Assembly: GCA_902790475.1 (NCBI GenBank)
Contig: CADASG010000004.1
Coordinates: forward strand, 4,373-68,372
Direction: 5' to 3'
DNA: 64,000 bases
Source: an uncultured Ruminococcus sp.
GTDB taxonomy: Bacteria; Bacillota; Clostridia; Oscillospirales; Acutalibacteraceae
Made by a program: the position numbers and the translations under genes. The notes beneath the pieces were generated by a model. The model had not been told where the DNA came from. It worked only from the letters and a program-made list of their open reading frames with translations, and ran no database searches. Positions 8,771 through 63,115 of the stretch are shown here, piece after piece. Each line of letters begins with the position of its first letter. The first letter of the stretch is position 1.

Positions 8771-8844
8771 TGTGGAATAGTGTAACGGTAGCACGACAGA
8801 CTCTGACTCTGTTTGTTGGGGTTCGAATCCCTATTCCACAGCCA
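8771..8844 (+). tRNA. tRNA-Gln(CTG)
   Basis: Acceptor TGTGGAA/TTCCACA, anticodon arm ACAGA-CT-CTG-AC-TCTGT, GTTCGAATC T-loop, encoded CCA. Confidence 0.95.
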
Positions 8845-8845
8845 T

Positions 8846-8875
8846 CAGCCTCGATTAAATCGAGGCTGTTTTATT
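8846..8875 (+). terminator. Terminator-like hairpin between the two tRNAs
   Basis: CAGCCTCGAT/ATCGAGGCTG stem followed by TTTTATT. Confidence 0.65.
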
Positions 8876-8876
8876 A

Positions 8877-8953
8877 CGAGGTGTAGCGCAGTTTGGTAGC
8901 GCACATCGTTCGGGACGATGGAGTCGCAAGTTCGAATCTTGTCACCTCGACCA
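8877..8953 (+). tRNA. tRNA-Pro(CGG)
   Basis: Acceptor CGAGGTG/CACCTCG, anticodon arm CATCG-TT-CGG-GA-CGATG, GTTCGAATC T-loop, CCA. Confidence 0.96.
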
Positions 8954-9075
8954 CTCTTAACACTCCCAAAAGCCAGTATTTATGCGGCTTTTGGGAGTTT
9001 TGCTTTTGTCTGGAAAACAAAAGTGTGTTATTGGTGTGTTACGACATTTTCATGCGGTCTTTTCCATTTTGTCTT

Positions 9076-9270
9076 TCACATTTTGTCTTTCAGCAATTTG
9101 GAAATCGTGTCACAACCGTGCGCTGTCGCTTCCTTGATCTCATGTGTGTACATACTGAGCGTCGTTGTTGGATTTGAATGTCCCACAATGCTTGATACCG
9201 TCGCAATATCGGTTCTCTCATGCACCGGATTGTTAACCGGCGCGTGTCGGCAAGGAGCCGGACGATCTTT
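9076..9270 (-). pseudogene. Tyrosine integrase C-terminal remnant
   Basis: Minus-strand frame 9222-9076 reads HERTDIATVSSIVGHSNPTTTLSMYTHEIKEATAHGCDTISKLLKDKM*, containing the GHS...Y catalytic box. A frameshifted S-L-R-H-like motif lies just upstream. Not in the ORF track. Confidence 0.8.
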
Positions 9271-9478: not shown

Positions 9479-9553
9479 TGTTTTGAGATAATAGATACAT
9501 GAAATACATGCAACAAATAAATGAATCTTAATAATTTAACAGGAGGTGGTTTC

Positions 9554-11911
9554 ATGACATACGCTGCACGCGTATGTCCGGACGGGAGGATACAAACCGT
9601 AAAAGGACATACAGACGGCGTTTGCCTTAAAGCAGAAAAAGACGCGCTTAGATTTGGTACCGCAGCAATGACAAAGCTGATTTGTTTGCTTCATGATATG
9701 GGAAAGAATACTGCGTACAGCAACCTCTATCAGAACACTGTAGGAGTAGGTGAACAGTGGAAAATAGATAAGCCGATTCATTCTCACGCCGGAGCCAGGT
9801 TGATTGACGAGCAGTATGGAAAAGCCGGTATGGATATATACTCAGTACTTTTCTCGGAATTATCCGAAACGGTCATCATGGCACATCACGGATTGTTTGA
9901 TTGTTTGTGTCCCGACGGACGGAATCAGCTTCTTCGAAAAATCCAAAATCAAGATTACGATTTCGATGAAGCAAGGCGGTTATTGCTTGACGAGATCGCC
10001 TCCTCCGAACAGCTCGACAGCCTGTTTTTAGCGGCGACCGCTGAAATGCAGACTAAGTTTCGCAAACTGCAGAAGATCACTGCAAAAAAGAGTGAGCTTT
10101 CGTTTTATATTTCTATGCTGTTTCGTATGCAGCTCTCTATACTTGTTAATGCCGACCATGCGGATGCGGCTGAATTTTCAACCGGAGAACAAGCTCCGTC
10201 TGACAACGGAAATACCGTACTGTGGGAAGCTTGCAGTACATTTTTGGAGAAGAAGCTGTCAAAATTTGATAATTTATCGGAAATACAAAACATCCGAAAG
10301 GAAATCTCCCGAAGGCTGCTTGAAAAATCGAATGTGAATAAGCGCATAGTTCGGCTGACGGTTCCGACCGGTGGCGGCAAAACGCTGAGTGGTTTGCGCT
10401 ATGCGGTGAATTATGCTAAATGTTATGATAAAAGCCGCATCATATACGTTGCTCCGTTCAATTCGATTCTGGAACAGAACGCAGCGGTTTTCAGGCAATT
10501 CTTACCTGATGATATGGAAATACTGGAGCATTACGGCGACATGACAAATGACGATTCCCGTTTCCGCTTTTACTCAGAAAATTGGAGTGCTCCGGTGATA
10601 ACAACTTCAATGGTGCAGTTTTTCAACACGTTGTTTCTAAGTAAAATTTCATCTGTCAGAAGAATGCGCAGTCTGTTAAACGCTGTTATAATCATCGACG
10701 AAGTTCAGTCCGTTCCGGTAGAGTGTGTGACATTGTTTAATCTTGCGGTAAATTTTCTTGCTGAGGTTTGCGGATGTACGGTGGTGCTGTGCTCCGCTAC
10801 GCAACCGACGCTTTCAGAGGAAGTCAAGCATCCGCTTTTGCTGTCGCCAAAGGACGAATTGATTGAAAACCAACTTGCATACGCAAAAGTCTTCAAAAGG
10901 ACAGAAATCACAGACTGCCTGACGCCTGACGGTTATACCTACGCTCAAACAGCCGATTTTGCAATAGAAAAAGCCGAATCAGCCAAGAGCGTGCTGCTGA
11001 TCGTCAACACCAAAGAGGCGGCAAAAACGGTTTATACACTGCTAAAGGAATGTTTGCCCGAGGATGTAACGGTTGTTCATTTATCCACACATATGTGTCC
11101 GTCGCATCGCAAGTCTGTTTTGGCGACGATGAAAAAACATTTGGACAACGGTGACAGAGTGGTTTGCGTCAGTACGCAGCTTATAGAAGCAGGTGTGGAT
11201 ATTTCATTTGAAACTGTTATTCGCTCTTTGGCAGGACTGGACAGTATCATTCAATCTGCCGGTCGATGTAACCGCAACTGTGAAGCAAAGTTGGGACATG
11301 TGTATGTAATCCGTATCGCAGACGAGAATATTTCTCGAATTAAAGCAATTAAAACCGGTGCGGCAATCACAGAGCGGCTGATGATGACGATACGCGCAAA
11401 TCCGTTGCTTTTTAACGGAGATCTCACAGGTAAAGAAGCCATTAACCGCTATTATCGCGATTATTATAACGCGTTCAAGAATGAATTGGATTTTCCTGTC
11501 ACTGTCGATAATATTGAAACGAGCATTTTTGAACTGCTTTCCACAAATCAAAAAGCATGTAATAATCAAAAAGCACGTAATACGGCAGATAAGCCCAATC
11601 GCTTTATGAACCAAGCCTTTCAAACCGCAGGCAAGGCTTTCAAGGTGATTGATGATTATGCACAGACTGTGCTTGTACCTTACGGTAAAGGAAAAGATTA
11701 CATCTGTAAGATATGTTCTGACCATTCTTTGCAGCCGTCTGCTGCTCTACTCCGTAAGCTGCAGCCTTTCACCATCGGTCTTTCCGACAAGCAGTGCGAG
11801 GGTAGGGTAACGCCGAATGAAGATACCGGTATTTTAATACTGAAAGAAGGTTTTTACAATGATGAATACGGTTTTGACCCTGATGGAAATCAGGATTTGC
11901 TGTTCTTTTAG
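9554..11911 (+). CDS. cas3: CRISPR-associated helicase/nuclease Cas3 (HD fused), type I-C
   Basis: HD motifs LHDMGK, HHG, ADH; Walker A PTGGGKT, IIDEVQ, SAT, STQLIEAGVD, QSAGRCNR. ATG 9554 follows AGGAGG. Confidence 0.96.
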   Translation: MTYAARVCPDGRIQTVKGHTDGVCLKAEKDALRFGTAAMTKLICLLHDMGKNTAYSNLYQNTVGVGEQWKIDKPIHSHAGARLIDEQYGKAGMDIYSVLFSELSETVIMAHHGLFDCLCPDGRNQLLRKIQNQDYDFDEARRLLLDEIASSEQLDSLFLAATAEMQTKFRKLQKITAKKSELSFYISMLFRMQLSILVNADHADAAEFSTGEQAPSDNGNTVLWEACSTFLEKKLSKFDNLSEIQNIRKEISRRLLEKSNVNKRIVRLTVPTGGGKTLSGLRYAVNYAKCYDKSRIIYVAPFNSILEQNAAVFRQFLPDDMEILEHYGDMTNDDSRFRFYSENWSAPVITTSMVQFFNTLFLSKISSVRRMRSLLNAVIIIDEVQSVPVECVTLFNLAVNFLAEVCGCTVVLCSATQPTLSEEVKHPLLLSPKDELIENQLAYAKVFKRTEITDCLTPDGYTYAQTADFAIEKAESAKSVLLIVNTKEAAKTVYTLLKECLPEDVTVVHLSTHMCPSHRKSVLATMKKHLDNGDRVVCVSTQLIEAGVDISFETVIRSLAGLDSIIQSAGRCNRNCEAKLGHVYVIRIADENISRIKAIKTGAAITERLMMTIRANPLLFNGDLTGKEAINRYYRDYYNAFKNELDFPVTVDNIETSIFELLSTNQKACNNQKARNTADKPNRFMNQAFQTAGKAFKVIDDYAQTVLVPYGKGKDYICKICSDHSLQPSAALLRKLQPFTIGLSDKQCEGRVTPNEDTGILILKEGFYNDEYGFDPDGNQDLLFF

Positions 11912-11925
11912 AAAGAGGTGAGGTA

Positions 11926-12663
11926 ATGAAATACAGCAATCAATTTGAATACAAGGTCTACGGCGATTACGCGTTGTTTTCCGACCCGGTCACCAGAGTA
12001 GGCGGTGAAAAAAGCACCTTGCCAATACCAACCTACGCAGCGTTGATCGGTGTTACAAAATCTGTTTATTGGAAGCCGACGCTGCTATACATTATAGATG
12101 AGGTGAAAATTTTAAATCCAATACGTACTGTGTCTAAAGGAATCCGTCCCATTAAATACAATGGCGGAAACGACCTGTCTATGTACACCTATCTGCACGA
12201 TGTGGCCTATGCGGTGCGAGGACGCTTTATCTGGAACGAAAACCATCCCGAGCTGGCGCAGGACAGAAACGAGGACAAACACTTTCAGATTTTAAAGCGC
12301 ATGATAGCGCGCGGCGGAAGACGCGACATTTTTCTCGGTACGCGAGAATGCCAGGCTTATGTGGAGCCGTGCCGCTTTGACGAAGAAAAGAGCTTTTACT
12401 CAGACGGTGAGCTTTCCTTCGGGCTGATGTATCACAGCCTTATTTACGCTGACGAGGCGATCTGCGACGAAGACAAGGGTAAGCTGACGGTATGCTTTCA
12501 TTCACCGGTAATGAAAAACGGAGTAATACGCCTGACGCCGCCCGAGGAATGTTCGGTAAAACGGCATATCAAGCCTGCAAAGATCAAAGTGTTCGACAGC
12601 GAACATCTTATGTCCGCCGATGTGCTATATGAGGAGGTGAAGCAGCTTGAGCTGGTTGAGTGA
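11926..12663 (+). CDS. cas5: Cas5c (Cas5d) crRNA-processing subunit
   Basis: VYGDYALFSDPVTRVGGEK...PTY, SVYWKP, IFLGTRECQAY. Confidence 0.95.
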   Translation: MKYSNQFEYKVYGDYALFSDPVTRVGGEKSTLPIPTYAALIGVTKSVYWKPTLLYIIDEVKILNPIRTVSKGIRPIKYNGGNDLSMYTYLHDVAYAVRGRFIWNENHPELAQDRNEDKHFQILKRMIARGGRRDIFLGTRECQAYVEPCRFDEEKSFYSDGELSFGLMYHSLIYADEAICDEDKGKLTVCFHSPVMKNGVIRLTPPEECSVKRHIKPAKIKVFDSEHLMSADVLYEEVKQLELVE

Positions 12664-14554
12664 GCTGAGTAAGCTATACGATTTGGAAGCGGATATCGTC
12701 GGAGAAGACATCGACGGCAAAACCCTTCTGCCGGTGTACCATTCCACTCAAAAGGCGCAAATTGACGTCTTTCTATTTGACGACGCTTCGTTTGCCTACG
12801 GCAAAGCCGTTGACGAAAGCGACAGTGTGACGATCATTCCCGTATCCATCAAAGCCAAAACAAGAGGTATTGCACCACATCCGTTGTGTGAAGGGCTAAA
12901 ATATGTAGCAGGAGATTATTCAAAACATGTAAAAAACACAAAGAAAGACTACTATGAGTATTTTCGTCAATATATTAAAAATTTGAAAAACTGGGTTGAA
13001 TCAGCGTTTACCGACAGACTTCTTGCAGTCATTTATTCGTATCTTAAAAAAGAAAACTTAATGGCGGATTTGATTGAAAGTGGTCTGTTAACCACTACCG
13101 ATAACGGAGAGCTGGAGAAAAGCAAAAAAATTGCCAAGATACCACAAGCAGACTGTTTTGTGAGATTCACAATTATAGACAAATGCACCGGAGAAACAGA
13201 ATCGGTCTGGCGATGCAAACGCTTATACGAGCAATACATTCAATATGCCGACAGTATCACAACAGAAAGGGATATTTGTTATGTAACCGGAAATCTTGTC
13301 CCGGTTACATATAATCACAGTAAGGGAATAAGTTCTTCATCTGATACAGCCAAGCTATTGTCAGCTAACGATAAGAATAATTTTACTTTTCGAGGAAGGT
13401 TTTGTACACAGCAGGAAGCCTATGCTGTAGGCAGAAAAACGTCTCAAAAAGCACATCTTGCACTTCGCTGGCTGATTGAACGTCAAGGGACAACGGTTGA
13501 CACCGCTATATTTGTGGTCTGGGAAAGCGAACAGCAGTCTGTCATCGACGCCGCGCATCCGTTTGACCTGTGGGAGCTGTTTGAAGACGACGAGCTAATG
13601 CCGAAAACCAACCGTGAATACGGCAGGGCAGTCGCAGAATACATCAAAGGCTATCGGCAAAAGCTTGACTTTTCCTCAAAAATCATGCTGATGTGCTTGA
13701 ATAAGTCATCGAAGGGCAGACTCTCAGTCGTGCAGTATCAGGAGTTTACTGCTACGGAATATTACGATCATCTCGAAAAATGGTACTGTGACGCCTCGTG
13801 GCATACATCATGGTCTCATGACGGTAAGCACTATCACGGAATCGCAACGCCATCTCCCTATCAGATTGCGCTGTTCGCAATCGGTGTGGAGCGTTCTGTC
13901 AAAAAAAAGATTGCGCTATCCGCAAACAGAGTGGAACATTCTGATACCAAAAAGATTATGGTGGACAAGAAACAAATGAATCAGATATTCAGGGAAATTC
14001 ATTCCTGTATATTGCACGGAACTACCGTGCCCATCCATATTCTCAAAATGCTATACAACCGCTGTGCCAACCCTTTAAGATACGATGCAGCGCACGGCAA
14101 CTGGGAAAAACTGCTGGACATCACATGTGCCCTGTACCGTAAACACTATATTGAAAAGAACGGAGTGACTTTTAACGTGGGACTTGACAGAACCTGTACC
14201 GACCGCAGTTATCTGTTTGGCAGACTGACAGCGGTAGCGGACAAAATGGAAACCGATACATTTGAAAAAGATATACGCCAGACAAACGCTAAACGCTATA
14301 TGAGCGCCATGCTGAACGCTCCGTTCAAAACATGGGCGTATCTGGAGGAACGTGTGCTTCCTTACACTGCGAAAATCATCAAACAAAATCCGCAGTATTA
14401 CGCAAGGTATGAAAAAGAGCTTGAGGAAATCCACTCACTTTTCCAAATGGAGGATTATTCCTCCAATGAGCGGCTTAACGCCAAATTTTTCATGGGCTTC
14501 TATTGCCAAAAACAAGATTTTTATAAAAAAGCTATAGCTGAAACGGAGGAATAA
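12647..14554 (+). CDS. cas8c: Cas8c (Csd1) large subunit
   Basis: MSWLSELSKLYD start, PHPLCEGLKY, SQKAHLALRWLI, DRSYLFGRL, FFMGFYCQ. Confidence 0.93.
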   Translation: MSWLSELSKLYDLEADIVGEDIDGKTLLPVYHSTQKAQIDVFLFDDASFAYGKAVDESDSVTIIPVSIKAKTRGIAPHPLCEGLKYVAGDYSKHVKNTKKDYYEYFRQYIKNLKNWVESAFTDRLLAVIYSYLKKENLMADLIESGLLTTTDNGELEKSKKIAKIPQADCFVRFTIIDKCTGETESVWRCKRLYEQYIQYADSITTERDICYVTGNLVPVTYNHSKGISSSSDTAKLLSANDKNNFTFRGRFCTQQEAYAVGRKTSQKAHLALRWLIERQGTTVDTAIFVVWESEQQSVIDAAHPFDLWELFEDDELMPKTNREYGRAVAEYIKGYRQKLDFSSKIMLMCLNKSSKGRLSVVQYQEFTATEYYDHLEKWYCDASWHTSWSHDGKHYHGIATPSPYQIALFAIGVERSVKKKIALSANRVEHSDTKKIMVDKKQMNQIFREIHSCILHGTTVPIHILKMLYNRCANPLRYDAAHGNWEKLLDITCALYRKHYIEKNGVTFNVGLDRTCTDRSYLFGRLTAVADKMETDTFEKDIRQTNAKRYMSAMLNAPFKTWAYLEERVLPYTAKIIKQNPQYYARYEKELEEIHSLFQMEDYSSNERLNAKFFMGFYCQKQDFYKKAIAETEE

Positions 14555-14556
14555 TA

Positions 14557-15438
14557 ATGGCTGTAATGGAAAATAAAATTGATTTTGTGGGATTTATTTC
14601 TGTCGAACGCGCAAACCCCAACGGCGACCCGCTCAACGGCAACCGTCCCCGGGATACTATCGAGGGCTTGGGAGAAATCTCAGACGTGTGTATCAAGCGG
14701 AAGATCCGCAACCGCTTGCAGGATATGGGGGAAAGCATTTTTGTTCAATCCGATGACAAAAGAACCGATAATTATTTTAGTTTAAAAGACCGACTTATTG
14801 CAGATCAGGAGCTAAAAAACCTTTCGCAAGGAAGCAAAAATGACGAGGAAAAATTCAAAGAAAAAGCTTGTCAAAAGTGGATAGACGTTCGAGCTTTTGG
14901 TCAATTGTTTGCTTTCAGCAAAAGTAAAAAAAAGAACAACGACAATCAAGACGACAATTCTGTTTCTATTGGTGTTCGCGGTCCGGTTTCCTTGCATCCG
15001 GCGTTCAGTATTGAACCGATTGAGATTGAAAGTATACAAATCACCAAGAGCGTCAACAGCGAAACTTCGGATTCCCGCTCCTCGGATACCATGGGCATGA
15101 AGCATCGTGTTAAATTCGGCGTTTACAAGCTCAAGGGCAGCATCAATTGTCAGCTTGCCGAAAAGACCGGTTTCTCCGATGAAGACGCGGAGAAGATCAA
15201 AAACGCACTGGCGACCCTTTTTGAAAACGACAGCTCCGCCGCGCGCCCCGACGGCAGCATGTGTGTGGAAAAGCTGTTCTGGTTCCGTCACAACTGCAAA
15301 TCCGGTCAGTATGCCACCGCCAAAGTTCACCGCAGCGTCAAGGCGGAAACGCTCTGCGACAACCCGAGATCTGCCGGGGATTACCGCTTCTTCTATGACG
15401 GCAGCCTCCCCGGCATCACACCCGAGGAAGTGGTGTGA
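14557..15438 (+). CDS. cas7: Cas7c (Csd2) backbone subunit
   Basis: ANPNGDPLNGNRPR, SDVCIKRKIRN, DVRAFGQLF, RGPVS, MGMKHRV, NDSSAARPDG. Confidence 0.95.
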   Translation: MAVMENKIDFVGFISVERANPNGDPLNGNRPRDTIEGLGEISDVCIKRKIRNRLQDMGESIFVQSDDKRTDNYFSLKDRLIADQELKNLSQGSKNDEEKFKEKACQKWIDVRAFGQLFAFSKSKKKNNDNQDDNSVSIGVRGPVSLHPAFSIEPIEIESIQITKSVNSETSDSRSSDTMGMKHRVKFGVYKLKGSINCQLAEKTGFSDEDAEKIKNALATLFENDSSAARPDGSMCVEKLFWFRHNCKSGQYATAKVHRSVKAETLCDNPRSAGDYRFFYDGSLPGITPEEVV

Positions 15439-15686
15439 TGACAGACGACGATCTGCTGAGCATTTCGGGAATACAGCATTTTGTCTTTTGCATAAGGCAG
15501 TGGGCGCTGATCCATATTGAACAGCAGTGGTCTGAAAACGTGCTGACCGTCAGCGGTGAGCTCATGCACCAAAACGCCCATGACGGCACAAGCACCGAAA
15601 ACCGGTATAAAACCAAGGTGGAACACTTCGGCGTAAATCGTTCCCTCGATATGGAAGACGCGCTGATTTTTCAGTGCGAAAGCTAA
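15435..15686 (+). pseudogene. Chimeric cas4'-'cas2 deletion scar (cas1 absent)
   Basis: Residues ~1-55 are the Cas4 N-terminus (LSISGIQHFVFCIRQWALIHIEQQW.EN...G...H). The remainder, NRYKTKVEHFGVNRSLDMEDALIF, matches the type I-C Cas2 C-terminus pattern (NxYKTKVEHIGxKxSxDxExPLIF). Confidence 0.85.
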
Positions 15687-15843
15687 GTGCACAGCTAAAC
15701 GCAAACCTTTCGCACCAAAATTATAATAATATTTTTGCAAATATGAGCAAACAATCATTATAAAGCAATTCATCTAATGATTACTTTCAATATATTGTTG
15801 AACAGTTGATGTCATTCTGATTTGATATTTGTGCATATTTGCT
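15674..15843 (+). promoter_or_regulatory. CRISPR leader
   Basis: GTGCGAAAG...CTTTCGCAC inverted repeat (15674-15715), typical just after cas2 in I-C loci, then an AT-rich stretch up to repeat 1. Confidence 0.75.
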
Positions 15844-16482
15844 GTCGCCCTCCACGCGGAGGGCGTGGATTGAAATAATCTCAACCGTGATTTCCAGTTG
15901 ATTATCTGACGTCGCCCTCCACGCGGAGGGCGTGGATTGAAATCGCTCCTTAATTTAAGGTCATGTATTCAACCTGTAGGTCGCCCTCCACGCGGAGGGC
16001 GTGGATTGAAATAACAGTACCCATCCCCGTGAGTACGACGGAAGTCGTCGCCCTCCATGCGGAGGGCGTGGATTGAAATACTGCTCCGCCTCCAATTCCT
16101 CAATCTCTACCTCTGTCACCCTCCACGCGGAGGGCGTGGATTGAAATCGTCGCGGGTTTGCCGCAGAATGCTCAGCGCTTGTGTCGCCCTCCACGCGGAG
16201 AGCGTGGATTGAAATTTTGAATAACGCCAACAATACGTTATATTTGGTCGTCGCCCTCCACGCGGAGGGCGTGGATTGAAATTTCATACAATCTGTAGCT
16301 CAATTTCTTCACCTCGCGTCGCCCTCCACGCGGAGGGCGTGGATTGAAATAAGTTCATTGTTAGAGCAAGCAAGGCGGATGAGGTCGCCCTCCACGCGGA
16401 GGGCGTGGATTGAAATAACAGTACCCATCCCCGTGAGTACGACGGAAGTCGTCGCCCTCCATGCGGAGGGCGTGGATTAAAT
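15844..16482 (+). CRISPR. Type I-C CRISPR array, 10 repeats and 9 spacers (33-36 bp)
   Basis: 33-bp repeat GTCGCCCTCCACGCGGAGGGCGTGGATTGAAAT starting at 15844, 15911, 15980, 16047, 16115, 16183, 16250, 16318, 16384 and 16451 (last one degenerate, 32 bp). Confidence 0.98.
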
Positions 16483-16543
16483 TTATTCATCCTTCTTTTT
16501 TTGAATAATTTTGTATCGGATATAACATTAAATTATTTCCTTT

Positions 16544-16581
16544 TTTCCGTGCAGGGCAGTGGTTTTGCACGGAAACTTTTT
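16544..16581 (+). terminator. Terminator after the CRISPR array
   Basis: TTTCCGTGCA/TGCACGGAAA stem followed by CTTTTT. Confidence 0.6.
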
Positions 16582-20817: not shown

Positions 20818-23800
20818 TTATTCGGGGATGTAATACTGTGCGGTGGGTGCGTTCGGATTGGTTTCGGGATTATCTGTGTAAATGTTCAGATACTTGCCGG
20901 AGCTGATCTTGGAGTCATCAATGATGATCCAAAGTTCGTTATCTACAAAGCCCTTATAATCTCTGGTCTGATCCTTGGTGGCGTTGGTGACTATCAGGTT
21001 ATAAGTTCCTGCGCCGCTGTAAGTGAAGTCATACTCAAACCAGCCAGTCTCCTCGTTAAGGGGAGCAGGGGGCTGTTTGTTCCATGTGCCGCCTGTGTAG
21101 TTGCCCTTGTCTTTTCCGGCAAGATCGGAACCCCAGATCCAGAGATAAGGAGTCCAGTTGTCGGTGGTGTGCTTTAAGTGCAGCTTAACGTCAAGGCTTC
21201 CGGAAACATAGTAGTAATCTACCTTTACGGTATTGCCATAGCTGAATACGCCCTCTGCGTTTTCGGGAAGCTTGGTTTTATCGAGCGTGTAGCCCATTAC
21301 GCGGTAATCGGTGGTGGTGTAGGGATCGCCGACTCTGCCGGTGAGCTTGACCTCGCTTGTGAGGGTTTTCTTGTTGCCGCTTGCGTCAAAGTAGTAGTGG
21401 TTCACAACAGCGCTGCCCTGAGCTACGCTGTAGCCTGCCAGATACTTCATCAGCATGGTTGCGTCGCTGATGGTGACCTTGCCGTCGCAGTCAAAGTCGC
21501 AGTCGGAAATATCATACGCGGTGCTGCCTGCCAAAGCTTTTTGCATAGCGGTAACGTCGTCAATGTTGATCTTTCCGTCTTTGTTCACGTCGCCGAAGTT
21601 TTTGAGAGCCTCGGGAACGTAATTCGTGTAGATGTAGGTAACTTCCTGAGTATCAGCGGTAAAGGTTCCGGAAGCGTTGCCCTGAACGGTCTTGACCTCT
21701 AAAGTGTTGGGAACAGCGGAGGAGGGAGCGGTTTCATATCCCGAGCCGATATTGCCGAGAATTACCATGGGAGCAGTCAGCTGATCGCCCTTTTCATTGA
21801 CGTAGTTGACAATTACCTTTCCTCTTTCGTCCTTGAGCGCACATGCCTCAAAGCTTTCCTTATCGACTGCGATGATGGAGGTGTTGCCGGGAACAGTAAA
21901 GCTCTTGCCTGATTTCTCCTCAATGGCGTTCAGTCCTGCGGTATCGCCGTTGGCTATGATGACCCATTCGGTAACGCCTGTGCTGCTTACGTCAACAGTA
22001 GCGTTTCCTGCAGCGCCGTTGTGCATAACAGCGACCTTTTTCCACTCGCCTTCCTTGTCGTTGGTTACAACGTAGTTGAGGGAGTTTCTCATGCCGGACA
22101 AAGCTTTGCCCAGGAAGTCAAAGCTGTCATAGTAGCTGTTGTCCGCAGCGGTGAACGGTGAGAAGTTTTTCCTTATCATCATCATGCCCTGATAGTAGGA
22201 AACCAGGTCAGCGTATTCCACTAAGTTTTGCCAGTTGATCTTATTGATTTCGGGAGATGATTTATAGGAGTTGGTGTCGCCGTACTTGGTGCGCGCCATC
22301 TCGTCGCCTGCAAGATAGAAGGTAGCGCCCTGAGCTGTGTTGAGCATCGCGGCTGTCATCTTGCTGAGTTTAACGCCGAGAGCGTCTCGCACGCCGTATT
22401 CGCCCTTTGTTGCGGAGGAAGTGATTTGATCATAGAGGGTAGCATTGTCGTGACAAGCCGCGTAGGAAACGGTCTGTGAGGGAGCTTTTGACTTCCAGCC
22501 GTTTGAATCGGTGTTTGCGCGAACGCCGTTTGCTACGTCAACATAGTGAGTAGCGTTGCCTGCGATAAAGCCCTTTTCAGTGGTATCAAAAACGCTGCCC
22601 TTGATACCGTCGCGGATCTTATCGTTGAAGAATGCGATCCTTTCATTAAGCTGAGCGGCGTTTGCCTGAGTAGCAGGATAGAAAGCAGCGCCGGTGCAGG
22701 TTTTGGACTCGTGTACGGAGGTGCCGCCTGTCCAGCCCTCGCCCCAAATGGTGAGTCTGGTGTCAACCTTATCCATTTCCTCGCGGATGAGGTTCATGGT
22801 TTCGGTATCTATCAAGCCCATAAGGTCAAAGCGGAAGCCGTCAACATGATACTCGTTGACCCAGTACATACAGGAATCAATGATGTACTTTCTGGTCATG
22901 GCGTAGTCGGAGGAAACCTCGTTGCCGCAGCCGGAGCCGTTTGAGAACGCGCCCTTGGAATCAACACGGTGATAATAGAAGGGAACAGTAGCCTGGAAGC
23001 AGGAATCGCTCTTGTCGCAGGAGTAGGTATGGTTGTATACTACGTCCATTACTACGGAAATGCCTGCGTCGTGCAGCGCTTTTATCATCTGCTTGCACTC
23101 GTTGATGCGCACGTTTCCGTTATAGGGGTCGGAAGAATAGGAGCCCTCGGGAACATTGAAGTTTTGAGGATCGTAGCCCCAGTTGAACTGGTCGTCGTCT
23201 CCTGCCTCGTTGATAGACTGGAAATCGTAGAAGGGATTGATCTGAACGGTCGTGATGCCCTGCTGCTTGAGATAGTCAACACAGGTGGAAATACTTCCGC
23301 TGTCGTTCAGTTTTGTGCCGGTTTCGGTGAAAGCGAGGTATTTGCCGCGGTTAGCGTCGCTGACGCCTGAGCTTTTGTCGTAAGAGAAGTCTTTGACATG
23401 AACCTCCCAAACCTGAGAGTCGGTTGGCTTATCGAGCAAAACGTGAGAGTCGTTATCCCAGCCCTCGGGATCGGTTTTGCTGAGGTCGCAAACCATGGAG
23501 CGCTTTCCGTTGACGCCTGTGGCAACAGAATAAACGTCCTGTGTTTCCGCTGTCTGAAGCTCGCCGGATTTGGGATCGGCAGCGGTGATGGTGTAGGTGT
23601 AGTAGGTATCGGCTATGTCACCGCTTACGGTGGCTGTCCATACGCCCGTCCACTGACCGTTCTCCATCAGCTGTTCCATTGTGATCTGACCGAGATCCTT
23701 CGCGCCTGTCTCACTGTCGGAACCGGTGGCAAAACGGTTTAAAATGACCTTGGTCGCTGTGGGCGACCATACCTTGAACACTGTTTTTTCGGGGGAATAA

Positions 23801-23979
23801 ACAGCGCCCAAATCATTTCCGTCATATGTGTACCTTTCATCAAGCGCATGTGCCGCGTTTGCCCACTCGTTCGCGCCGACGTCATCGGCGGTCGAAGCGG
23901 CAAAGCCTGTCATAACGGCTGAAGAAGCCAACATGCAGACTGCCAGTACCGAAGAAATGATTTTCTTTGTACATTTCAT
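20818..23979 (-). CDS. pulA: Type I pullulanase (CBM48-GH13_14) with MucBP-like domains, internal dockerin and C-terminal CBM26-like domain
   Basis: Signal peptide; NWGYDP, GFRFDLMG, WGEGW, CHDN catalytic motifs; dockerin GDVNKDGKINIDD...DFDCDGKVTISD; C-terminal PYLWIWG...W...GWF. Confidence 0.92.
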   Translation of the reverse strand: MKCTKKIISSVLAVCMLASSAVMTGFAASTADDVGANEWANAAHALDERYTYDGNDLGAVYSPEKTVFKVWSPTATKVILNRFATGSDSETGAKDLGQITMEQLMENGQWTGVWTATVSGDIADTYYTYTITAADPKSGELQTAETQDVYSVATGVNGKRSMVCDLSKTDPEGWDNDSHVLLDKPTDSQVWEVHVKDFSYDKSSGVSDANRGKYLAFTETGTKLNDSGSISTCVDYLKQQGITTVQINPFYDFQSINEAGDDDQFNWGYDPQNFNVPEGSYSSDPYNGNVRINECKQMIKALHDAGISVVMDVVYNHTYSCDKSDSCFQATVPFYYHRVDSKGAFSNGSGCGNEVSSDYAMTRKYIIDSCMYWVNEYHVDGFRFDLMGLIDTETMNLIREEMDKVDTRLTIWGEGWTGGTSVHESKTCTGAAFYPATQANAAQLNERIAFFNDKIRDGIKGSVFDTTEKGFIAGNATHYVDVANGVRANTDSNGWKSKAPSQTVSYAACHDNATLYDQITSSATKGEYGVRDALGVKLSKMTAAMLNTAQGATFYLAGDEMARTKYGDTNSYKSSPEINKINWQNLVEYADLVSYYQGMMMIRKNFSPFTAADNSYYDSFDFLGKALSGMRNSLNYVVTNDKEGEWKKVAVMHNGAAGNATVDVSSTGVTEWVIIANGDTAGLNAIEEKSGKSFTVPGNTSIIAVDKESFEACALKDERGKVIVNYVNEKGDQLTAPMVILGNIGSGYETAPSSAVPNTLEVKTVQGNASGTFTADTQEVTYIYTNYVPEALKNFGDVNKDGKINIDDVTAMQKALAGSTAYDISDCDFDCDGKVTISDATMLMKYLAGYSVAQGSAVVNHYYFDASGNKKTLTSEVKLTGRVGDPYTTTDYRVMGYTLDKTKLPENAEGVFSYGNTVKVDYYYVSGSLDVKLHLKHTTDNWTPYLWIWGSDLAGKDKGNYTGGTWNKQPPAPLNEETGWFEYDFTYSGAGTYNLIVTNATKDQTRDYKGFVDNELWIIIDDSKISSGKYLNIYTDNPETNPNAPTAQYYIPE

Positions 23980-24075
23980 AAAAATCCTCCTTTATTTTGA
24001 CGGCAAAGCCGCGTTTTCCGCTCAATACCAAACTTAGATTTGTGTAATAAGCGGTTGTGTACTTTATTGTTTGAA

Positions 24076-26928
24076 TTATTTGTATTCGGTTTTTGCCTGC
24101 GGTTCGGAAGAAAACTCCATAGCCGCTCTGAGTTTCTTTTTTCGGTTGACGCGCGACATTATCGCGGACACAACGCAAAGAGCCATTATCACTCCTGCGC
24201 CGATATAGACGTAGATCAGCAGATCGGCAAAGGGATCGGGCTGAGTGGAGTAGCGGAAAAGAACATTGGTGTCGCCTTTTTTGAATACGCCGAAGGAATT
24301 ATTGGGGACGGCAATAAGGTTCATATCCTCATACTCGTTCTGCTGCGCGGAGTATTCCTGACCTTCTTTTCCCGTCAGAGTCTTTTTGTCCAGTATTTTT
24401 CCGTTGTCCGCCATATATACCAGATTAAGACGGCAAACATCCTTATCCTTGCTGTCGGTCTTTTTATAATAGTAGGTTACCGTTATTTCATCTCCGTGAA
24501 CATCGCCTGCGCCGTTTTTGGGAAGCTTATCCATCATCAGCGAATAGCCGTCGATCTCGGGAAGCTCGGGGGTGTAATACTTTTTTCCCTCGCGGTTGCG
24601 GATAACATAATCGTCAGCCAGTTCCTTTTTTGTCTTTTCATCAACGAACTTTATTGTGACGTTCGACATTTTGCCCTTGTATTTCTCAACATACACGTCG
24701 GCGTATTTTACCTCGGGAGTAAAGCTGCCTGCCGTATCTCCCGAAGAGGATTTGATATCGTAATTGAGTGAAGTCGCGATGGAAGTTATGTCATAACTGC
24801 CGCCGACCCTGTCGGTGATTACCTGTGTTTTGATTTTCTTTTTTGTTTCGTTGTCGTAATAATTGATCACGACCGTGCCCTCAAAATCCTCGATCACGGA
24901 TTTTTCATAGCTCGTCTTATCTATCAATATAGCTGCGGAATGCGCCTTCACCTTAACGCTGCCGGAGCAGGTGCCCAGATTCTTTAGTCCTGCTGTCATA
25001 TCGTCGGCGATTTTGATCCACTCGCCGCTGATGCTGACATTCTGTTCGTCGTCGGAGCCGTTGAATACCATGCACGCCTTCTGCCAGCCCTCCGCTTCGG
25101 TATTGTCCACAGTGTAGGCGCAAACTCCCTTGGGAAGGTTTTCAAGCGCAACAATGCTTTCGGCGGTCATGGTGGTAGGATCTGAAAGCGCTGTAAAGGT
25201 CTCGCGGATCTTCAACAAACCGCGGTAATACTCTATCAAATCGCTGTACTCGTTAAGATTTTTCCAGTCGAGCTGATTTTCGGTGCGGCTGGAGGCGTAG
25301 GAGTTTTCGTCGCCGTCCTTGCTGCGCGCGAATTCCTCGCCGCCCAAAATGAACGGTATGCCCTGTGAGGTAAAGACAATGGCTGCCGAAAGCTTGTTCA
25401 TGGAAACGAGCTCCTCGTGGCGCTTGCGGTACTCTTTGTTGTTCAGCACCGAATCCACCAGCTTGTCATAGAGCGCCTCATTGTCGTGACAGGAGGCGTA
25501 GTTGACGCACTGAGTGGGAACGCTTGCCCAGCCGTTGACGCTCATGCCGAGGAAACCTTTTTTGATGCCGCTGCGGTTTTTGCCGGTCTGAACAAAGCCG
25601 GGTTCATTGCCGAAAACAGAGCCTTTTATCGCGTCGCGGATGGTATCGTTGAACGCGCCGATACGGTTATCAAGCTGCGAAAGGTTGTTTTGGTTCGCCA
25701 TAACTGTGCCGGGAGCGCAGTTGGTATCCAGATTCCAAGCCTCTCCGTACATCAAAATCCGTTTGCCGCTGCCGTCATCATACAGATTGTCGAGCGCCTC
25801 GCGTATTTGATTCATGGTCGTCACGTCGTGAAGACCCATCAGGTCAAAACGGAAACCGTCGATATGATACTCGGTCGCCCAGTAGAGAACGGAGTCGATC
25901 ATGTATTTGCGGAACATAAGATGCTCTGAGGCAGTGTCGTTGCCGCATCCCGAGCCGTTGGAAAAGCTTCCGTCGGGATTCATGCGGTAATAGTAGTTTG
26001 GAACGGTATACTGGAACCACGAATCTGTGGAGTAGGTGTGATTGTAAACCACGTCCATAATAACACCGATGCCGGCGTTGTGCAGCGCCTGTACCATCTG
26101 CTTGCACTCGTTGATGCGCACGCTGCCGTTGTCCGGGTCTGTAGAATAACTGCCCTCCGGGATATTGTAGTTGATCGGATCATATCCCCAGTTGTACTGC
26201 TTCATTATGTCCTTGCTCTCATCAACAGAGCCGAAATCGTACATGGGCATGATCTGCACATATTTTACGCCTAATTTTTTCAGGTAATCCACGCAGGTGG
26301 ACGGTGCGCCCTGTACGCCGTCAACAGTAGTGTCCTTTTCGGTAAAGGCGGTAAACTTTCCTCGGTTTTTAGCTGTCACGCCGCTGCTCTTGGAGGAGGA
26401 AAAGTCCGCTACGGAGATTTCCCATACAGTTGCGTTGGTTTGATGAGCAACATAAACGTGCTGGTCATTTTCCCAGCCCTGCGGATCGGTCGTATTTAAG
26501 TCGATCACCATGCTGCGCTTGCCGTTTACTCCGCAGGCGCGCGCGTAGATATCGCCCGTAACCTTAGTGCTTTTTCCGTGTCTGACGGTATAGGTGTAGT
26601 ACTTGCCTGCGAGATTGCCGGGGATAGTCGCTTCCCATACTCCGGTCGAGCGGTCAAGGGTCATTTTTTTGGTTTTGATAGACTTTCCGCTGCCGCCGTC
26701 GTCATAGATATCAACGCTCATATCGTCTGCTTTCGGCGACCAAACCTTAAAGGTAGTGGCGTCTTTTGTATAGTTTGCGCCTAAATCATCTTTATCATAT
26801 GCCATTTGATCGAGCTCGGCGGCGTACGCCCGGTAATCGGCAGCGCCGACCGCTTTTAAATCTGTTGAAACAACTCCCGTAAACATAGCGATTGTCAATA
26901 CTCCTGTCAATAGTTTTTTTAAAAGCAA
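24076..26928 (-). CDS. pulA: Type I pullulanase (CBM48-GH13_14) with three MucBP-like domains and C-terminal membrane anchor
   Basis: YNWGYDP, GFRFDLMG, YGEAW, CHDN; C-terminal hydrophobic helix followed by RVNRKKK. Probable TTG start at 26928 after AGGAGG. Confidence 0.9.
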   Translation of the reverse strand: MLLKKLLTGVLTIAMFTGVVSTDLKAVGAADYRAYAAELDQMAYDKDDLGANYTKDATTFKVWSPKADDMSVDIYDDGGSGKSIKTKKMTLDRSTGVWEATIPGNLAGKYYTYTVRHGKSTKVTGDIYARACGVNGKRSMVIDLNTTDPQGWENDQHVYVAHQTNATVWEISVADFSSSKSSGVTAKNRGKFTAFTEKDTTVDGVQGAPSTCVDYLKKLGVKYVQIMPMYDFGSVDESKDIMKQYNWGYDPINYNIPEGSYSTDPDNGSVRINECKQMVQALHNAGIGVIMDVVYNHTYSTDSWFQYTVPNYYYRMNPDGSFSNGSGCGNDTASEHLMFRKYMIDSVLYWATEYHIDGFRFDLMGLHDVTTMNQIREALDNLYDDGSGKRILMYGEAWNLDTNCAPGTVMANQNNLSQLDNRIGAFNDTIRDAIKGSVFGNEPGFVQTGKNRSGIKKGFLGMSVNGWASVPTQCVNYASCHDNEALYDKLVDSVLNNKEYRKRHEELVSMNKLSAAIVFTSQGIPFILGGEEFARSKDGDENSYASSRTENQLDWKNLNEYSDLIEYYRGLLKIRETFTALSDPTTMTAESIVALENLPKGVCAYTVDNTEAEGWQKACMVFNGSDDEQNVSISGEWIKIADDMTAGLKNLGTCSGSVKVKAHSAAILIDKTSYEKSVIEDFEGTVVINYYDNETKKKIKTQVITDRVGGSYDITSIATSLNYDIKSSSGDTAGSFTPEVKYADVYVEKYKGKMSNVTIKFVDEKTKKELADDYVIRNREGKKYYTPELPEIDGYSLMMDKLPKNGAGDVHGDEITVTYYYKKTDSKDKDVCRLNLVYMADNGKILDKKTLTGKEGQEYSAQQNEYEDMNLIAVPNNSFGVFKKGDTNVLFRYSTQPDPFADLLIYVYIGAGVIMALCVVSAIMSRVNRKKKLRAAMEFSSEPQAKTEYK

Positions 26929-27069
26929 AATAATGCCTCCTGCCAGCATATTTATTATATAATTGTATCATAAAACAGGGGTGAATTTAATTCTGTATAA
27001 GAAATTAATTTCTGTCACATATGTTTTTAATGTAGAAAATCAAGGATTATTTTAGTGTATTTTGACGAT

Positions 27070-62813: not shown

Positions 62814-63115
62814 TCACCTTTATTGTAAGTCAGTATTTCATCAAAACCCGTCACCTCAAACACATCGGTGACGACCTCGCTGACGTTGATCAGCCGCATC
62901 TCGCCCTGATTCATCATCACCTTTTGCAGCGACAGCAGAACCCTGAGTCCTGCGGAAGAAACGTAATTGACGTCTTTAAAGTCCAGCACCAGCTTTGTGA
63001 TCCCGTCTAAATTGGGCTTAACACCTGCTTCCAGCTCAGGCGCAGTAACGGTGTCTATCCGTCCGCTGATCGTAACATTCAGTTTGTTTCCCTCTTTTTT
63101 TCTTTTGATATTCAT
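62810..63115 (-). CDS. STAS anti-anti-sigma factor (RsbV/SpoIIAA-like)
   Basis: GRIDTVTAPELE, LDFKDVNYVSSAGLRVLL (phospho-Ser), VFEVTGF. Confidence 0.92.
   Translation of the reverse strand: MNIKRKKEGNKLNVTISGRIDTVTAPELEAGVKPNLDGITKLVLDFKDVNYVSSAGLRVLLSLQKVMMNQGEMRLINVSEVVTDVFEVTGFDEILTYNKGE

What the first reader, a model, noticed from the sequence alone, without database searches (positions are those of the whole stretch)
15435..15686. Single deletion fused cas4 to cas2 in frame and erased cas1, leaving an interference-only type I-C system
Seen: the 83-aa ORF switches at ...HDGTSTE|NRYKTKVEHFG... from Cas4 N-terminal sequence to the Cas2 C-terminal signature. The leader inverted repeat follows exactly where it normally follows cas2. 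The expected stop after LIF appears as CAG, extending the ORF by four residues. cas3/5/8c/7 keep their motifs. Established: the I-C order is cas3-5-8c-7-4-1-2. Inference: spacer acquisition is lost, so memory is frozen unless Cas1/2 come in trans. An annotator would call this simply a short cas4.
Basis: partly seen in the sequence, partly recalled or inferred. Interest (0 to 1): 0.68.

Follow-up and report, generated by a model that had tools for sequence, protein, structure and literature searches.

The report
Deletion scar fusing cas4 to cas2
A rumen bacterium's type I-C CRISPR locus lost its spacer-acquisition genes in one 1.7-kb deletion, which left a short cas4-cas2 remnant, intact interference genes and an array; this is a real but ordinary kind of CRISPR decay.

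Summary
The ORF at 15435-15686 consists of Cas4 codons 1-55 joined in frame to the last 24 codons of Cas2. Close full-length relatives (L086, L087, L088) show one deletion of 1746-1747 bp. It removed the 3' three-quarters of cas4, all of cas1 and the 5' three-quarters of cas2. The crossover lies in an imperfect 6-nt microhomology, AA[G/C]CGG (15600-15605), that sits in the same codon phase in both genes. The former cas2 stop TAG is CAG here, while sister alleles still have TAG.

The junction is not an assembly artefact. It occurs on more than 30 contigs from many rumen and gut studies, in Logan contigs of three independent runs and in a metatranscriptome contig. One sample holds both the deleted and the full-length form.

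cas3, cas5c, cas8c and cas7 are full length, and no cas1 or cas2 lies elsewhere in the window.

One inference is not supported at population level, namely that memory is "frozen": arrays linked to the same deletion share almost no spacers.

The event type is common. About 10% of related I-C loci carry similar scars, and this clade alone has three independent deletions plus a cas1 frameshift. Interest is low to moderate.

The parts
9521..11911 (+). cas3 (HD nuclease fused to helicase), 796 aa, full length
   Evidence: It matches TIGR01587 at 126 bits (cut-off 102) and TIGR01596 at 46.5 bits (cut-off 43.45). It is 96% identical and collinear with Cas3 of the intact locus L088. HD is at residue 58, GGGKT at 284, DEVQ at 393 and QSAGRCNR at 578.
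11926..12663 (+). cas5c, 245 aa
   Evidence: It matches TIGR01876 at 219 bits (cut-off 85) and is 94% identical to L088 Cas5.
12647..14554 (+). cas8c (csd1), 635 aa
   Evidence: It matches TIGR01863 at 319 bits (cut-off 219) and is 90% identical to L088 Cas8c with no internal stops.
14557..15438 (+). cas7 (csd2), 293 aa; its TGA stop shares one base with the ATG of the remnant ORF
   Evidence: It matches TIGR02589 at 327 bits (cut-off 182). The ATGA-type overlap is read directly from the sequence and is the same as at cas7/cas4 in L086.
15438..15601 (+). cas4' remnant: codons 1-55 of cas4. It holds the first Fe-S cysteine and none of the nuclease motifs.
   Evidence: It is 55/56 identical to the N-terminus of the 218-aa Cas4 of L086. 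Pfam PF01930 matches only profile positions 2-42 of 160, at 20.9 bits, below the 22.7 cut-off.
15600..15605 (+). Deletion junction: imperfect microhomology AA[G/C]CGG, in the same codon phase in cas4 (AAG CGG) and cas2 (AAC CGG)
   Evidence: Three-way DNA comparison with L086, L087 and L088. Sister alleles L110-L112 read AAG CGG at the junction.
15602..15671 (+). cas2' remnant: the last 24 codons of cas2 (NRYKTKVEHFGVNRSLDMEDALIF; the first two bases of its first codon lie in the AA shared with cas4 at 15600-15601)
   Evidence: It is 24/24 identical to the C-terminus of the intact Cas2 P0150. tblastn against 80 loci hits only Cas2 C-termini.
15672..15686 (+). Former cas2 stop mutated TAG to CAG, giving a 4-codon read-through (QCES) to TAA
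   Evidence: Intact loci have TAG at this position. The 78-aa alleles P0124, P0126 and P0128-P0131 and loci L110-L112 keep the stop. In most I-C loci the frame reads LIF*CE(S).
15674..15715 (+). Conserved post-cas2 inverted repeat GTGCGAA-N28-TTCGCAC
   Evidence: the repeat finder pair I4. The strict motif is found in 46 of 60 I-C loci and near variants in several more.
15687..15843 (+). A+T-rich CRISPR leader, retained intact
   Evidence: It is 96-98% identical to the leaders of the intact loci L086-L088. A possible promoter TTGCAA-N18-TATAAA at 15735-15764 was seen by eye only; the consensus scan did not report it.
15844..16483 (+). CRISPR array: 10 repeats of 33 nt (GTCGCCCTCCACGCGGAGGGCGTGGATTGAAAT) and 9 spacers, 8 of them unique; the terminal repeat is degenerate
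   Evidence: the repeat finder family D1; weak Rfam CRISPR-DR9 matches.
16013..16079 (+). Internal copy of the trailer-end unit (spacer 3 plus a hybrid repeat with the terminal-repeat variant CATGCGG), identical to 16417-16483
   Evidence: the repeat finder family D2, 99% identity. The same spacer is the terminal spacer in L087, L102 and L104.
16544..16575 (+). Terminator-like hairpin downstream of the array

Best explanation
The locus is a type I-C CRISPR-Cas system from an uncultured rumen/gut Clostridia bacterium (Ruminococcus-like). Its adaptation module was removed by one illegitimate-recombination deletion of about 1.75 kb.

The deletion joined cas4 codon 55/56 to cas2 codon 72/73 at a short imperfect microhomology, AA[G/C]CGG. 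That motif is in the same codon phase in both genes, so the scar is in frame. The resulting 78-aa ORF was later extended to 82 aa by a TAG-to-CAG change.

The ORF is most likely a functionless remnant. It lacks the RecB nuclease motifs and three of the four Fe-S cysteines of Cas4. It also lacks the whole ferredoxin-like core of Cas2.

Shown here: cas3-cas5c-cas8c-cas7, the leader and the array are untouched, and the operon is found in rumen RNA libraries.

Inferred: the locus still makes crRNAs (Cas5c processing) and carries out Cascade/Cas3 interference, but it cannot add spacers by itself.

The nearest full-length alleles already carry a frameshifted cas1. The deletion may therefore have removed a module that was already dead.

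Array content in carriers has nevertheless diversified. This happened through Cas1-Cas2 supplied from elsewhere, through recombinational exchange or shuffling of arrays with co-resident strains that keep the module, or both.
For: - Breakpoint mapped against intact loci L086, L087 and L088.
- The Cas2 C-terminus is 24/24 identical to P0150, and the Cas4 N-terminus is 55/56 identical to L086.
- The junction is present in contigs of independent runs X1, X2 and X15. In X3 a 170-nt junction unitig (depth 16.9) co-exists with a 1917-nt unitig (depth 8.3) that bridges 15605 to 15600, which is the full-length allele.
- The same scar is on more than 30 contigs from ENA, NCBI, JGI and Logan. Every contig that reaches far enough has full-length cas3/5/8c/7.
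- The haplotype table shows the deletion alleles as one tight group, closest to L086/L087.
- Among carriers, pN/pS is 0.13-0.29 for cas3, cas5, cas8c and cas7.
- A metatranscriptome contig spans the junction with no differences, and RNA contigs cover cas3 to cas7.
- L086 and L087 share a 1-nt deletion in cas1.
- No cas1 or cas2 lies elsewhere in the window.
- The window array carries a recombinant hybrid repeat and a duplicated trailer unit.
Against: - No protospacer was found for 5 of the 8 unique spacers in IMG/VR, or for the array in INPHARED. Targets and the PAM are therefore unverified.
- Interference activity is inferred from intact ORFs and transcription only. The RNA libraries are read as assembled contigs and may contain DNA.
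- The rest of the genome could not be searched for cas1/cas2.
- Polymorphism in the remnant ORF cannot settle whether it is unconstrained. My contig sample was selected by exact protein sequence, so the low pN/pS for this ORF is an ascertainment artefact.
- The order of the cas1 frameshift and the deletion is not known.
Confidence: 0.88

Rival explanations
1. The junction is an assembly artefact, either a collapse or a chimera between cas4 and cas2 at a short shared sequence, and the real genome has an intact cas4-cas1-cas2.
For: The junction lies in a short shared motif. Intact alleles exist in the same habitat and even in the same sample.
Against: The identical junction was recovered by different assemblers (MEGAHIT, SPAdes, Logan unitigs) in more than 30 contigs from many studies. 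The alleles carry their own later mutations, including AAC/AAT/AAG at the junction and TAG/CAG at the stop. In X3 both forms are separate unitigs with different depths. A 6-nt imperfect match is far shorter than any assembler k-mer.
Confidence: 0.01
2. The 78-82-aa Cas4N-Cas2C protein is not junk but a retained, functional small protein. One possibility is a decoy that binds Cas1 through the Cas2 C-terminal tail and damps adaptation complexes supplied in trans or by invading elements.
For: The ORF is in frame, translationally coupled to cas7, present in RNA and kept open in all 16 protein variants of the cluster. Independent in-frame cas4::cas2 fusions exist in other lineages: P0010/L109, P0021 and L063.
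Against: The in-frame cases were found with an in-frame query, which biases the search. Out-of-frame or stop-ridden scars also exist (L060, L024). Sister deletions in the same clade leave no such ORF (L001, L082-L085). At least 13 different amino-acid substitutions and a stop-codon loss segregate within a 78-aa protein. No catalytic or cluster-binding motif set is complete.
Confidence: 0.05
3. The system is not interference-only in practice. Cas1-Cas2(-Cas4) encoded elsewhere in the genome, or on a resident mobile element, keeps adding spacers to this array.
For: Carriers of the same deletion have at least 8 array types with over 45 distinct spacers and few shared ones. Several pairs look like leader-end additions on a shared trailer: [s3], [s44 s45 s3] and [s1 s2 s3...], and L103 [s17..] against L089 [s15 s16 s17..]. 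The leader and the first repeat are fully conserved. Use of adaptation proteins in trans is documented for other systems (abstract of bioRxiv 10.1101/2024.10.25.620265).
Against: No cas1 or cas2 lies in these 64 kb. The same array patterns can arise by spacer loss and by recombination between arrays. The window shows direct evidence of such recombination in its hybrid repeat and duplicated trailer unit. Shared spacers s2 and s22 sit in different neighbourhoods, so the arrays are mosaic.
Confidence: 0.3

Closest known systems
Canonical type I-C CRISPR-Cas loci (cas3-cas5c-cas8c-cas7-cas4-cas1-cas2-leader-array), e.g. the intact relatives L088, L004 (Thermoclostridium caenicola) and L008 (Brevibacillus panacihumi)
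   Same: They share the gene order, the protein families, a 33-nt repeat ending ATTGAAAT and the conserved GTGCGAA..TTCGCAC element after cas2. L088 is 92% identical in DNA over cas3 to cas4'.
   Different: 1746-1747 bp are missing here: cas4 codons 56 to the end, all of cas1, and cas2 codons 1-72.
Other adaptation-module deletion scars in I-C loci found here: L001, L018, L082-L085 (cas4' joined to the leader/repeat); L063, L060, L109/P0010, P0021 (cas4'::cas2'); L024 (cas1'::cas2')
   Same: They show the same kind of event: an internal deletion that starts in cas4 or cas1 and ends in cas2, the leader or a repeat, and that keeps the effector genes and the array.
   Different: The breakpoints differ and the events are independent. 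Some also lost the leader (L001, L018, L082-L085). Some are out of frame or carry stops. L082-L084 additionally have a split cas8c.
CRISPR-Cas variants that naturally lack adaptation genes (type IV, transposon-borne type I and V-K, V-U; review PMC6452270) and loci that borrow Cas1-Cas2 in trans (Listeria seeligeri VI-A, bioRxiv 10.1101/2024.10.25.620265)
   Same: An effector module and an array without their own cas1/cas2.
   Different: Those are established, long-lived architectures, often with changed function. This locus is a recent within-species loss from a standard defence locus, and the full-length allele still segregates.
Natural Cas4-Cas1 fusion proteins (e.g. type I-G Cas4g/Cas1g, NCBIfam NF049935)
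   Same: This is the best NCBIfam match of the ORF (E 2e-5), through the Cas4 N-terminus.
   Different: Only profile positions 2-69 of 546 are matched, at 23 bits against a cut-off of 560. There is no Cas1 domain. The ORF is a scar, not a domain fusion.

Membership tests
Type I-C CRISPR-Cas system | Effector genes cas3 (HD nuclease plus helicase), cas5c, cas8c/csd1 and cas7/csd2 in this order, with no cas6 | tested here: met
   All four are above NCBIfam cut-offs with near full-length matches. They are collinear with the intact locus L088. No other ORF lies between them.
Type I-C CRISPR-Cas system | Adaptation genes cas4, cas1 and cas2 downstream of cas7 | tested here: not met
   Only cas4 codons 1-55 and cas2 codons 73-96 remain. 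No cas1 or cas2 lies elsewhere in the window at tblastn E<=10, apart from chance-level hits.
Type I-C CRISPR-Cas system | Adjacent CRISPR array with an I-C-type repeat and leader | tested here: met
   There are 10 repeats at 15844-16483. The leader is 96-98% identical to those of intact loci.
Type I-C CRISPR-Cas system | Interference activity against protospacers with a 5'-TTC PAM | not testable with these tools
   No protospacers were found. An interference assay is needed.
Cas4 (PF01930 / TIGR00372) | Complete RecB-like nuclease domain with four Fe-S cysteines | tested here: not met
   PF01930 scores 20.9 bits against a cut-off of 22.7 and covers profile positions 2-42 of 160. TIGR00372 scores 17.4 bits against a cut-off of 65. 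The alignment to the 218-aa Cas4 ends at residue 56.
Cas2 (PF09827) | Ferredoxin-like fold of about 90 aa with the N-terminal beta-strand (LITYDV) | tested here: not met
   There is no Pfam match. Only residues 73-96 of the 96-aa Cas2 P0150 are present.

The most novel reading that the evidence does not exclude
In this rumen species the costly adaptation module may be kept by only a minority of cells. The majority would carry interference-only loci, produced by three independent deletions plus a cas1 frameshift. They would still renew their arrays, either through Cas1-Cas2 acting in trans or by importing and shuffling arrays from module-bearing strains through homologous recombination at repeats and flanks. 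Spacer acquisition would then act as a population-level shared resource.
Probability: 0.25. Interest if true: 0.55.

Novelty: new member of a known kind. Interest (0 to 1): 0.3.

Why it matters
For annotation, the ORF should be labelled a cas4'::'cas2 deletion remnant and not "Cas4, partial". The locus should be typed as I-C without an adaptation module.

For biology, this is a well-resolved natural example of how CRISPR loci shed cas1/cas2 by short-microhomology deletion while keeping Cascade/Cas3. The deleted and full-length alleles co-occur in the same samples. This makes the species a usable natural system for asking whether interference-only strains keep up with phages, and how their arrays change.

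It does not reveal a new mechanism or a new protein.

Tried and rejected
- Protospacer search: five of the eight unique spacers, with every sixth base free, gave no match in IMG/VR. The whole array against INPHARED hit only repeat-bearing fragments. The PAM and the targets therefore remain unverified.
I used a composite query instead, made of the N-terminus of L051 Cas2 plus the window tail, purely as a search device. The hits were then judged by their own sequences.
Co-existence of the two alleles therefore rests on the X3 unitigs laid on the window.
- pN/pS of the remnant ORF came out at 0.11. I rejected this value because the contigs had been retrieved by exact protein identity, which hides non-synonymous variation.
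- I first read I19 (FCIRQW instead of FCRRQW) as a sign of relaxed constraint and then dropped the idea. The full-length Cas4 of L086 has the same residue.
- Rfam has no family for the post-cas2 element.
- The consensus promoter scan reported nothing in the leader.
- The weak Cas2-like tblastn hit at 62831-62992 is a STAS-type anti-sigma-factor-antagonist-like ORF (my reading of the translation) with a chance-level E-value, not Cas2.
- Recurrent origin of the same junction was considered. The haplotype table fits a single origin on an L086/L087-like background better. The AAG/AAC/AAT variants at the junction codon leave a second resolution of the same microhomology possible.

Full report
**1. 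What is at the coordinates**

The window carries a standard type I-C effector operon. All four genes match their NCBIfam models above the curated cut-offs over nearly their whole length.

| Gene | Coordinates |
|---|---|
| cas3 | 9521-11911 |
| cas5c | 11926-12663 |
| cas8c | 12647-14554 |
| cas7 | 14557-15438 |

- The proteins are collinear with those of an intact relative, L088, at 78-96% amino-acid identity and without internal stops.
- Cas3 keeps HD (residue 58), GGGKT (284), DEVQ (393) and QSAGRCNR (578).
- The ORF of the finding starts at GTG 15435 or ATG 15438. Its ATG shares one base with the cas7 stop. It ends at TAA 15684-15686.
- After it come a 157-nt A+T-rich leader and a CRISPR array of ten 33-nt repeats at 15844-16483.
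- A terminator-like hairpin follows at 16544-16575.

**2. The ORF is Cas4 N-terminus plus Cas2 C-terminus**

- Pfam and NCBIfam see only a sub-threshold Cas4 N-terminus, covering profile positions 2-42 of 160.
- A database search with the ORF returned near-identical copies of the same fusion (P0001 and its cluster). It also returned contig-cut intact Cas4 proteins of the same lineage that continue ...HDGTSTEKRGDVLISRGMPV....
- A second search recovered intact Cas2 proteins whose last 24 residues are identical to residues 56-79 of the ORF: P0150, 24/24.
- Residues 2-57 match the N-terminus of the 218-aa Cas4 of L086 at 55/56, and nothing after residue 57 aligns to Cas4.
- tblastn of the 28 C-terminal residues against 80 related loci hits the Cas2 C-terminus in about 60 of them. 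In most, the frame reads LIF*CE(S).

**3. Breakpoint**

Contigs encoding P0150 and P0156 gave three full-length loci. L086 and L087 hold cas7-cas4-cas1-cas2, and L088 holds cas3 through cas2.

- The window aligns to them as two blocks that abut at 15600-15605. The missing block is 1746 bp against L086/L087 and 1747 bp against L088.
- At the junction, cas4 reads ACC GAA AAG CGG GGC, cas2 reads GGC AAC CGG TAT, and the window reads ACC GAA AAC CGG TAT.
- The crossover therefore lies within an imperfect 6-nt microhomology, AA[G/C]CGG, which sits in the same codon phase in both genes. That is why the scar is in frame.
- Sister alleles L110-L112 read GAA AAG CGG TAT and keep TTC TAG. That is the ancestral state on both sides, so the original crossover may have been in the CGG.
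- The window's TAG-to-CAG change at 15672 is a later substitution. Six 78-aa cluster members still end at LIF.

**4. It is real, not an assembly artefact**

- The exact 82-aa product of the window occurs on at least 12 contigs from NCBI, JGI/IMG, ENA and Logan, the longest of 182 kb. A one-residue variant occurs on at least 15 more, and the cluster has 16 protein variants.
- I retrieved 23 such contigs from many studies and assemblers. All carry the junction.
- Logan contigs of three independent runs cross the junction without differences (X1, X2, X15).
- In a fourth run (X3) a 170-nt unitig crosses the junction at depth 16.9. A 1917-nt unitig at depth 8.3 has one end on 15501-15605 and the other on 15600-15670. 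That is the length expected for the full-length allele.
- A 151-nt rumen metatranscriptome contig covers 15489-15639 with no differences. Low-depth RNA contigs cover cas3 to cas7. These are assembled contigs and DNA carry-over cannot be excluded.

**5. Origin and state of the module before deletion**

- A table of variable sites over 15000-15850 places all deletion alleles in one tight group. This group is closest to the full-length alleles L086/L087 and more distant from L088. A single origin is the simplest reading.
- L086 and L087 come from two different runs and share a 1-nt deletion in cas1 (GGGTCTGG to GGGTTGG). It splits cas1 into ORFs of 235 and 118 aa.
- Adaptation may therefore already have been dead on the background where the deletion arose. 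This is an inference, because the order of events cannot be recovered.

**6. Other losses in the same clade and elsewhere**

- L001 is the species-representative MAG closest to the window, at 83% DNA identity. It joins cas4 codon 19 directly to the first base of a repeat (TTTTGCA|GTCGCC), so it has also lost the leader.
- L082-L085 and the P0006 cluster (11 protein variants) join cas4 codon ~95 into a repeat at a CACGGA microhomology. In L082-L084, cas8c is also split.
- Among 65 species-representative I-C loci with enough downstream sequence, 58 have near full-length cas4, cas1 and cas2 and 7 do not.
- Scars among those 7:
  - L063: Cas4 N-terminus fused in frame to Cas2 from RVQNSVFEC.
  - L060: cas4'::cas2' with stops.
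  - L024: cas1'::cas2'.
  - L018: cas4' joined next to a repeat.
- P0010/L109 and P0021 are further in-frame cas4::cas2 fusions with other breakpoints.

The event type is thus recurrent and fairly common. The in-frame cases were found with an in-frame query, so they say nothing about selection for frame.

**7. Is the memory frozen?**

- No cas1 or cas2 is detectable elsewhere in the 64 kb. The only weak hit, at 62831-62992, has a chance-level E-value. The ORF there looks to me like a STAS-type anti-sigma-factor antagonist rather than Cas2.
- The rest of the genome could not be searched.
- Arrays linked to the same scar are very diverse. There are at least 8 array types with over 45 distinct spacers. 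Only a few are shared: s2, s3, s17, s22 and s24, some of them as common trailer spacers.
- This diversity needs either acquisition after the deletion, with Cas1-Cas2 in trans, or exchange and shuffling of arrays by recombination with module-bearing strains.
- The window shows that recombination occurs. Spacer 3 and its downstream repeat (16013-16079) duplicate the trailer unit (16417-16483). The internal repeat is a hybrid, carrying the terminal-repeat variant CATGCGG at its 5' side and the normal ATTGAAAT at its 3' side.

I cannot separate the two routes. "Frozen" holds for the locus acting alone and is not shown for the lineage.

**8. Function of what remains**

- All carriers with enough sequence keep full-length cas3/5/8c/7.
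- Polymorphism in these genes among carriers is mostly synonymous, with pN/pS of 0.13-0.29.
- Together with the RNA evidence, this supports a maintained interference module. This is inferred and has not been assayed.
- The remnant ORF lacks every complete motif set of either parent, and at least 13 different amino-acid substitutions segregate in it. I regard it as a scar.
- My pN/pS estimate for the remnant is invalid because of how the contigs were retrieved.

**9. Comparison with what is known**

- Four literature searches found no description of cas4::cas2 scars in I-C loci. That is absence of a catalogue, not evidence of a new phenomenon.

**Verdict**

It is a new member of a known kind and of low to moderate interest.

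Noticed in passing
window 15674-15715; the 70 nt after the cas2 stop in L003-L079 (alignment A1): A conserved element, GTGCGAA-N4-AAG-N3-ACAT..-TTCGCACC, begins at the last base of the cas2 stop codon in most type I-C loci from many Firmicutes and a Bacteroides MAG. The 7-bp outer stem shows 2 compensatory changes (L014, L066) and 9 G-U-compatible changes on the + strand. Rfam has no family for it. It could be an RNA structure at the end of the cas mRNA or a protein-binding site in the distal leader.
   Followed up: partly
window 16013-16079 and 16417-16483: Spacer 3 and its downstream repeat are duplicated, and the internal repeat is a hybrid of the terminal and the normal repeat. This is a footprint of recombination between arrays or array ends. 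The same spacer is the trailer spacer in L087 (full-length allele), L102 and L104.
   Followed up: partly
L086 about 2760-2800 and L087 about 2465-2500 (cas1): The two full-length alleles closest to the window share a 1-nt deletion that frameshifts cas1 just before the conserved GLDPYVGF region. They come from two different sequencing runs.
   Followed up: yes
L001 8850-8930; L018 1098-1230; L082 3040-3120: Independent deletions join a 5' fragment of cas4 to the array. In L001 and L018 the right end lies at or within a few bases of the 5' boundary of a repeat, which is the site where the Cas1-Cas2 integrase acts. In L082-L085 it lies inside a repeat at a CACGGA microhomology. Whether the boundary cases reflect integrase-related breakage was not examined.
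   Followed up: partly
L082-L084, cas8c region (75-590 and 785-1939): In the lineage with the cas4-to-repeat deletion, cas8c is split into ORFs of 171 aa and 384 aa. The whole system seems to be decaying there, unlike in the window's allele.
   Followed up: no
window 8771-9225: tRNA-Gln (8771-8844), tRNA-Pro (8877-8953) and a 49-aa C-terminal remnant of a tyrosine recombinase (9076-9225, minus strand) lie just upstream of cas3. The upstream neighbourhood differs between strains: DnaD/IstB-like genes, MBOAT, or PepSY/Cthe_2159. The I-C locus appears to sit at a variable, integration-prone site.
   Followed up: partly
proteins P0036, P0039, P0054, P0087, P0113: Many database 'short Cas4' proteins from other lineages are Cas4 N-termini that go out of frame right after ...TEK(R/K)K.., presumably an A-rich stretch in the DNA. 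They may be real frameshifts or homopolymer errors. P0031 looks like an internal in-frame deletion within cas4.
   Followed up: no
window 20818-26949 (minus strand): Two large ORFs downstream carry alpha-amylase/CBM48, MucBP and dockerin domains in the equivalent genes of L089-L092. This fits a cellulosome-bearing Ruminococcus-like rumen bacterium.
   Followed up: no
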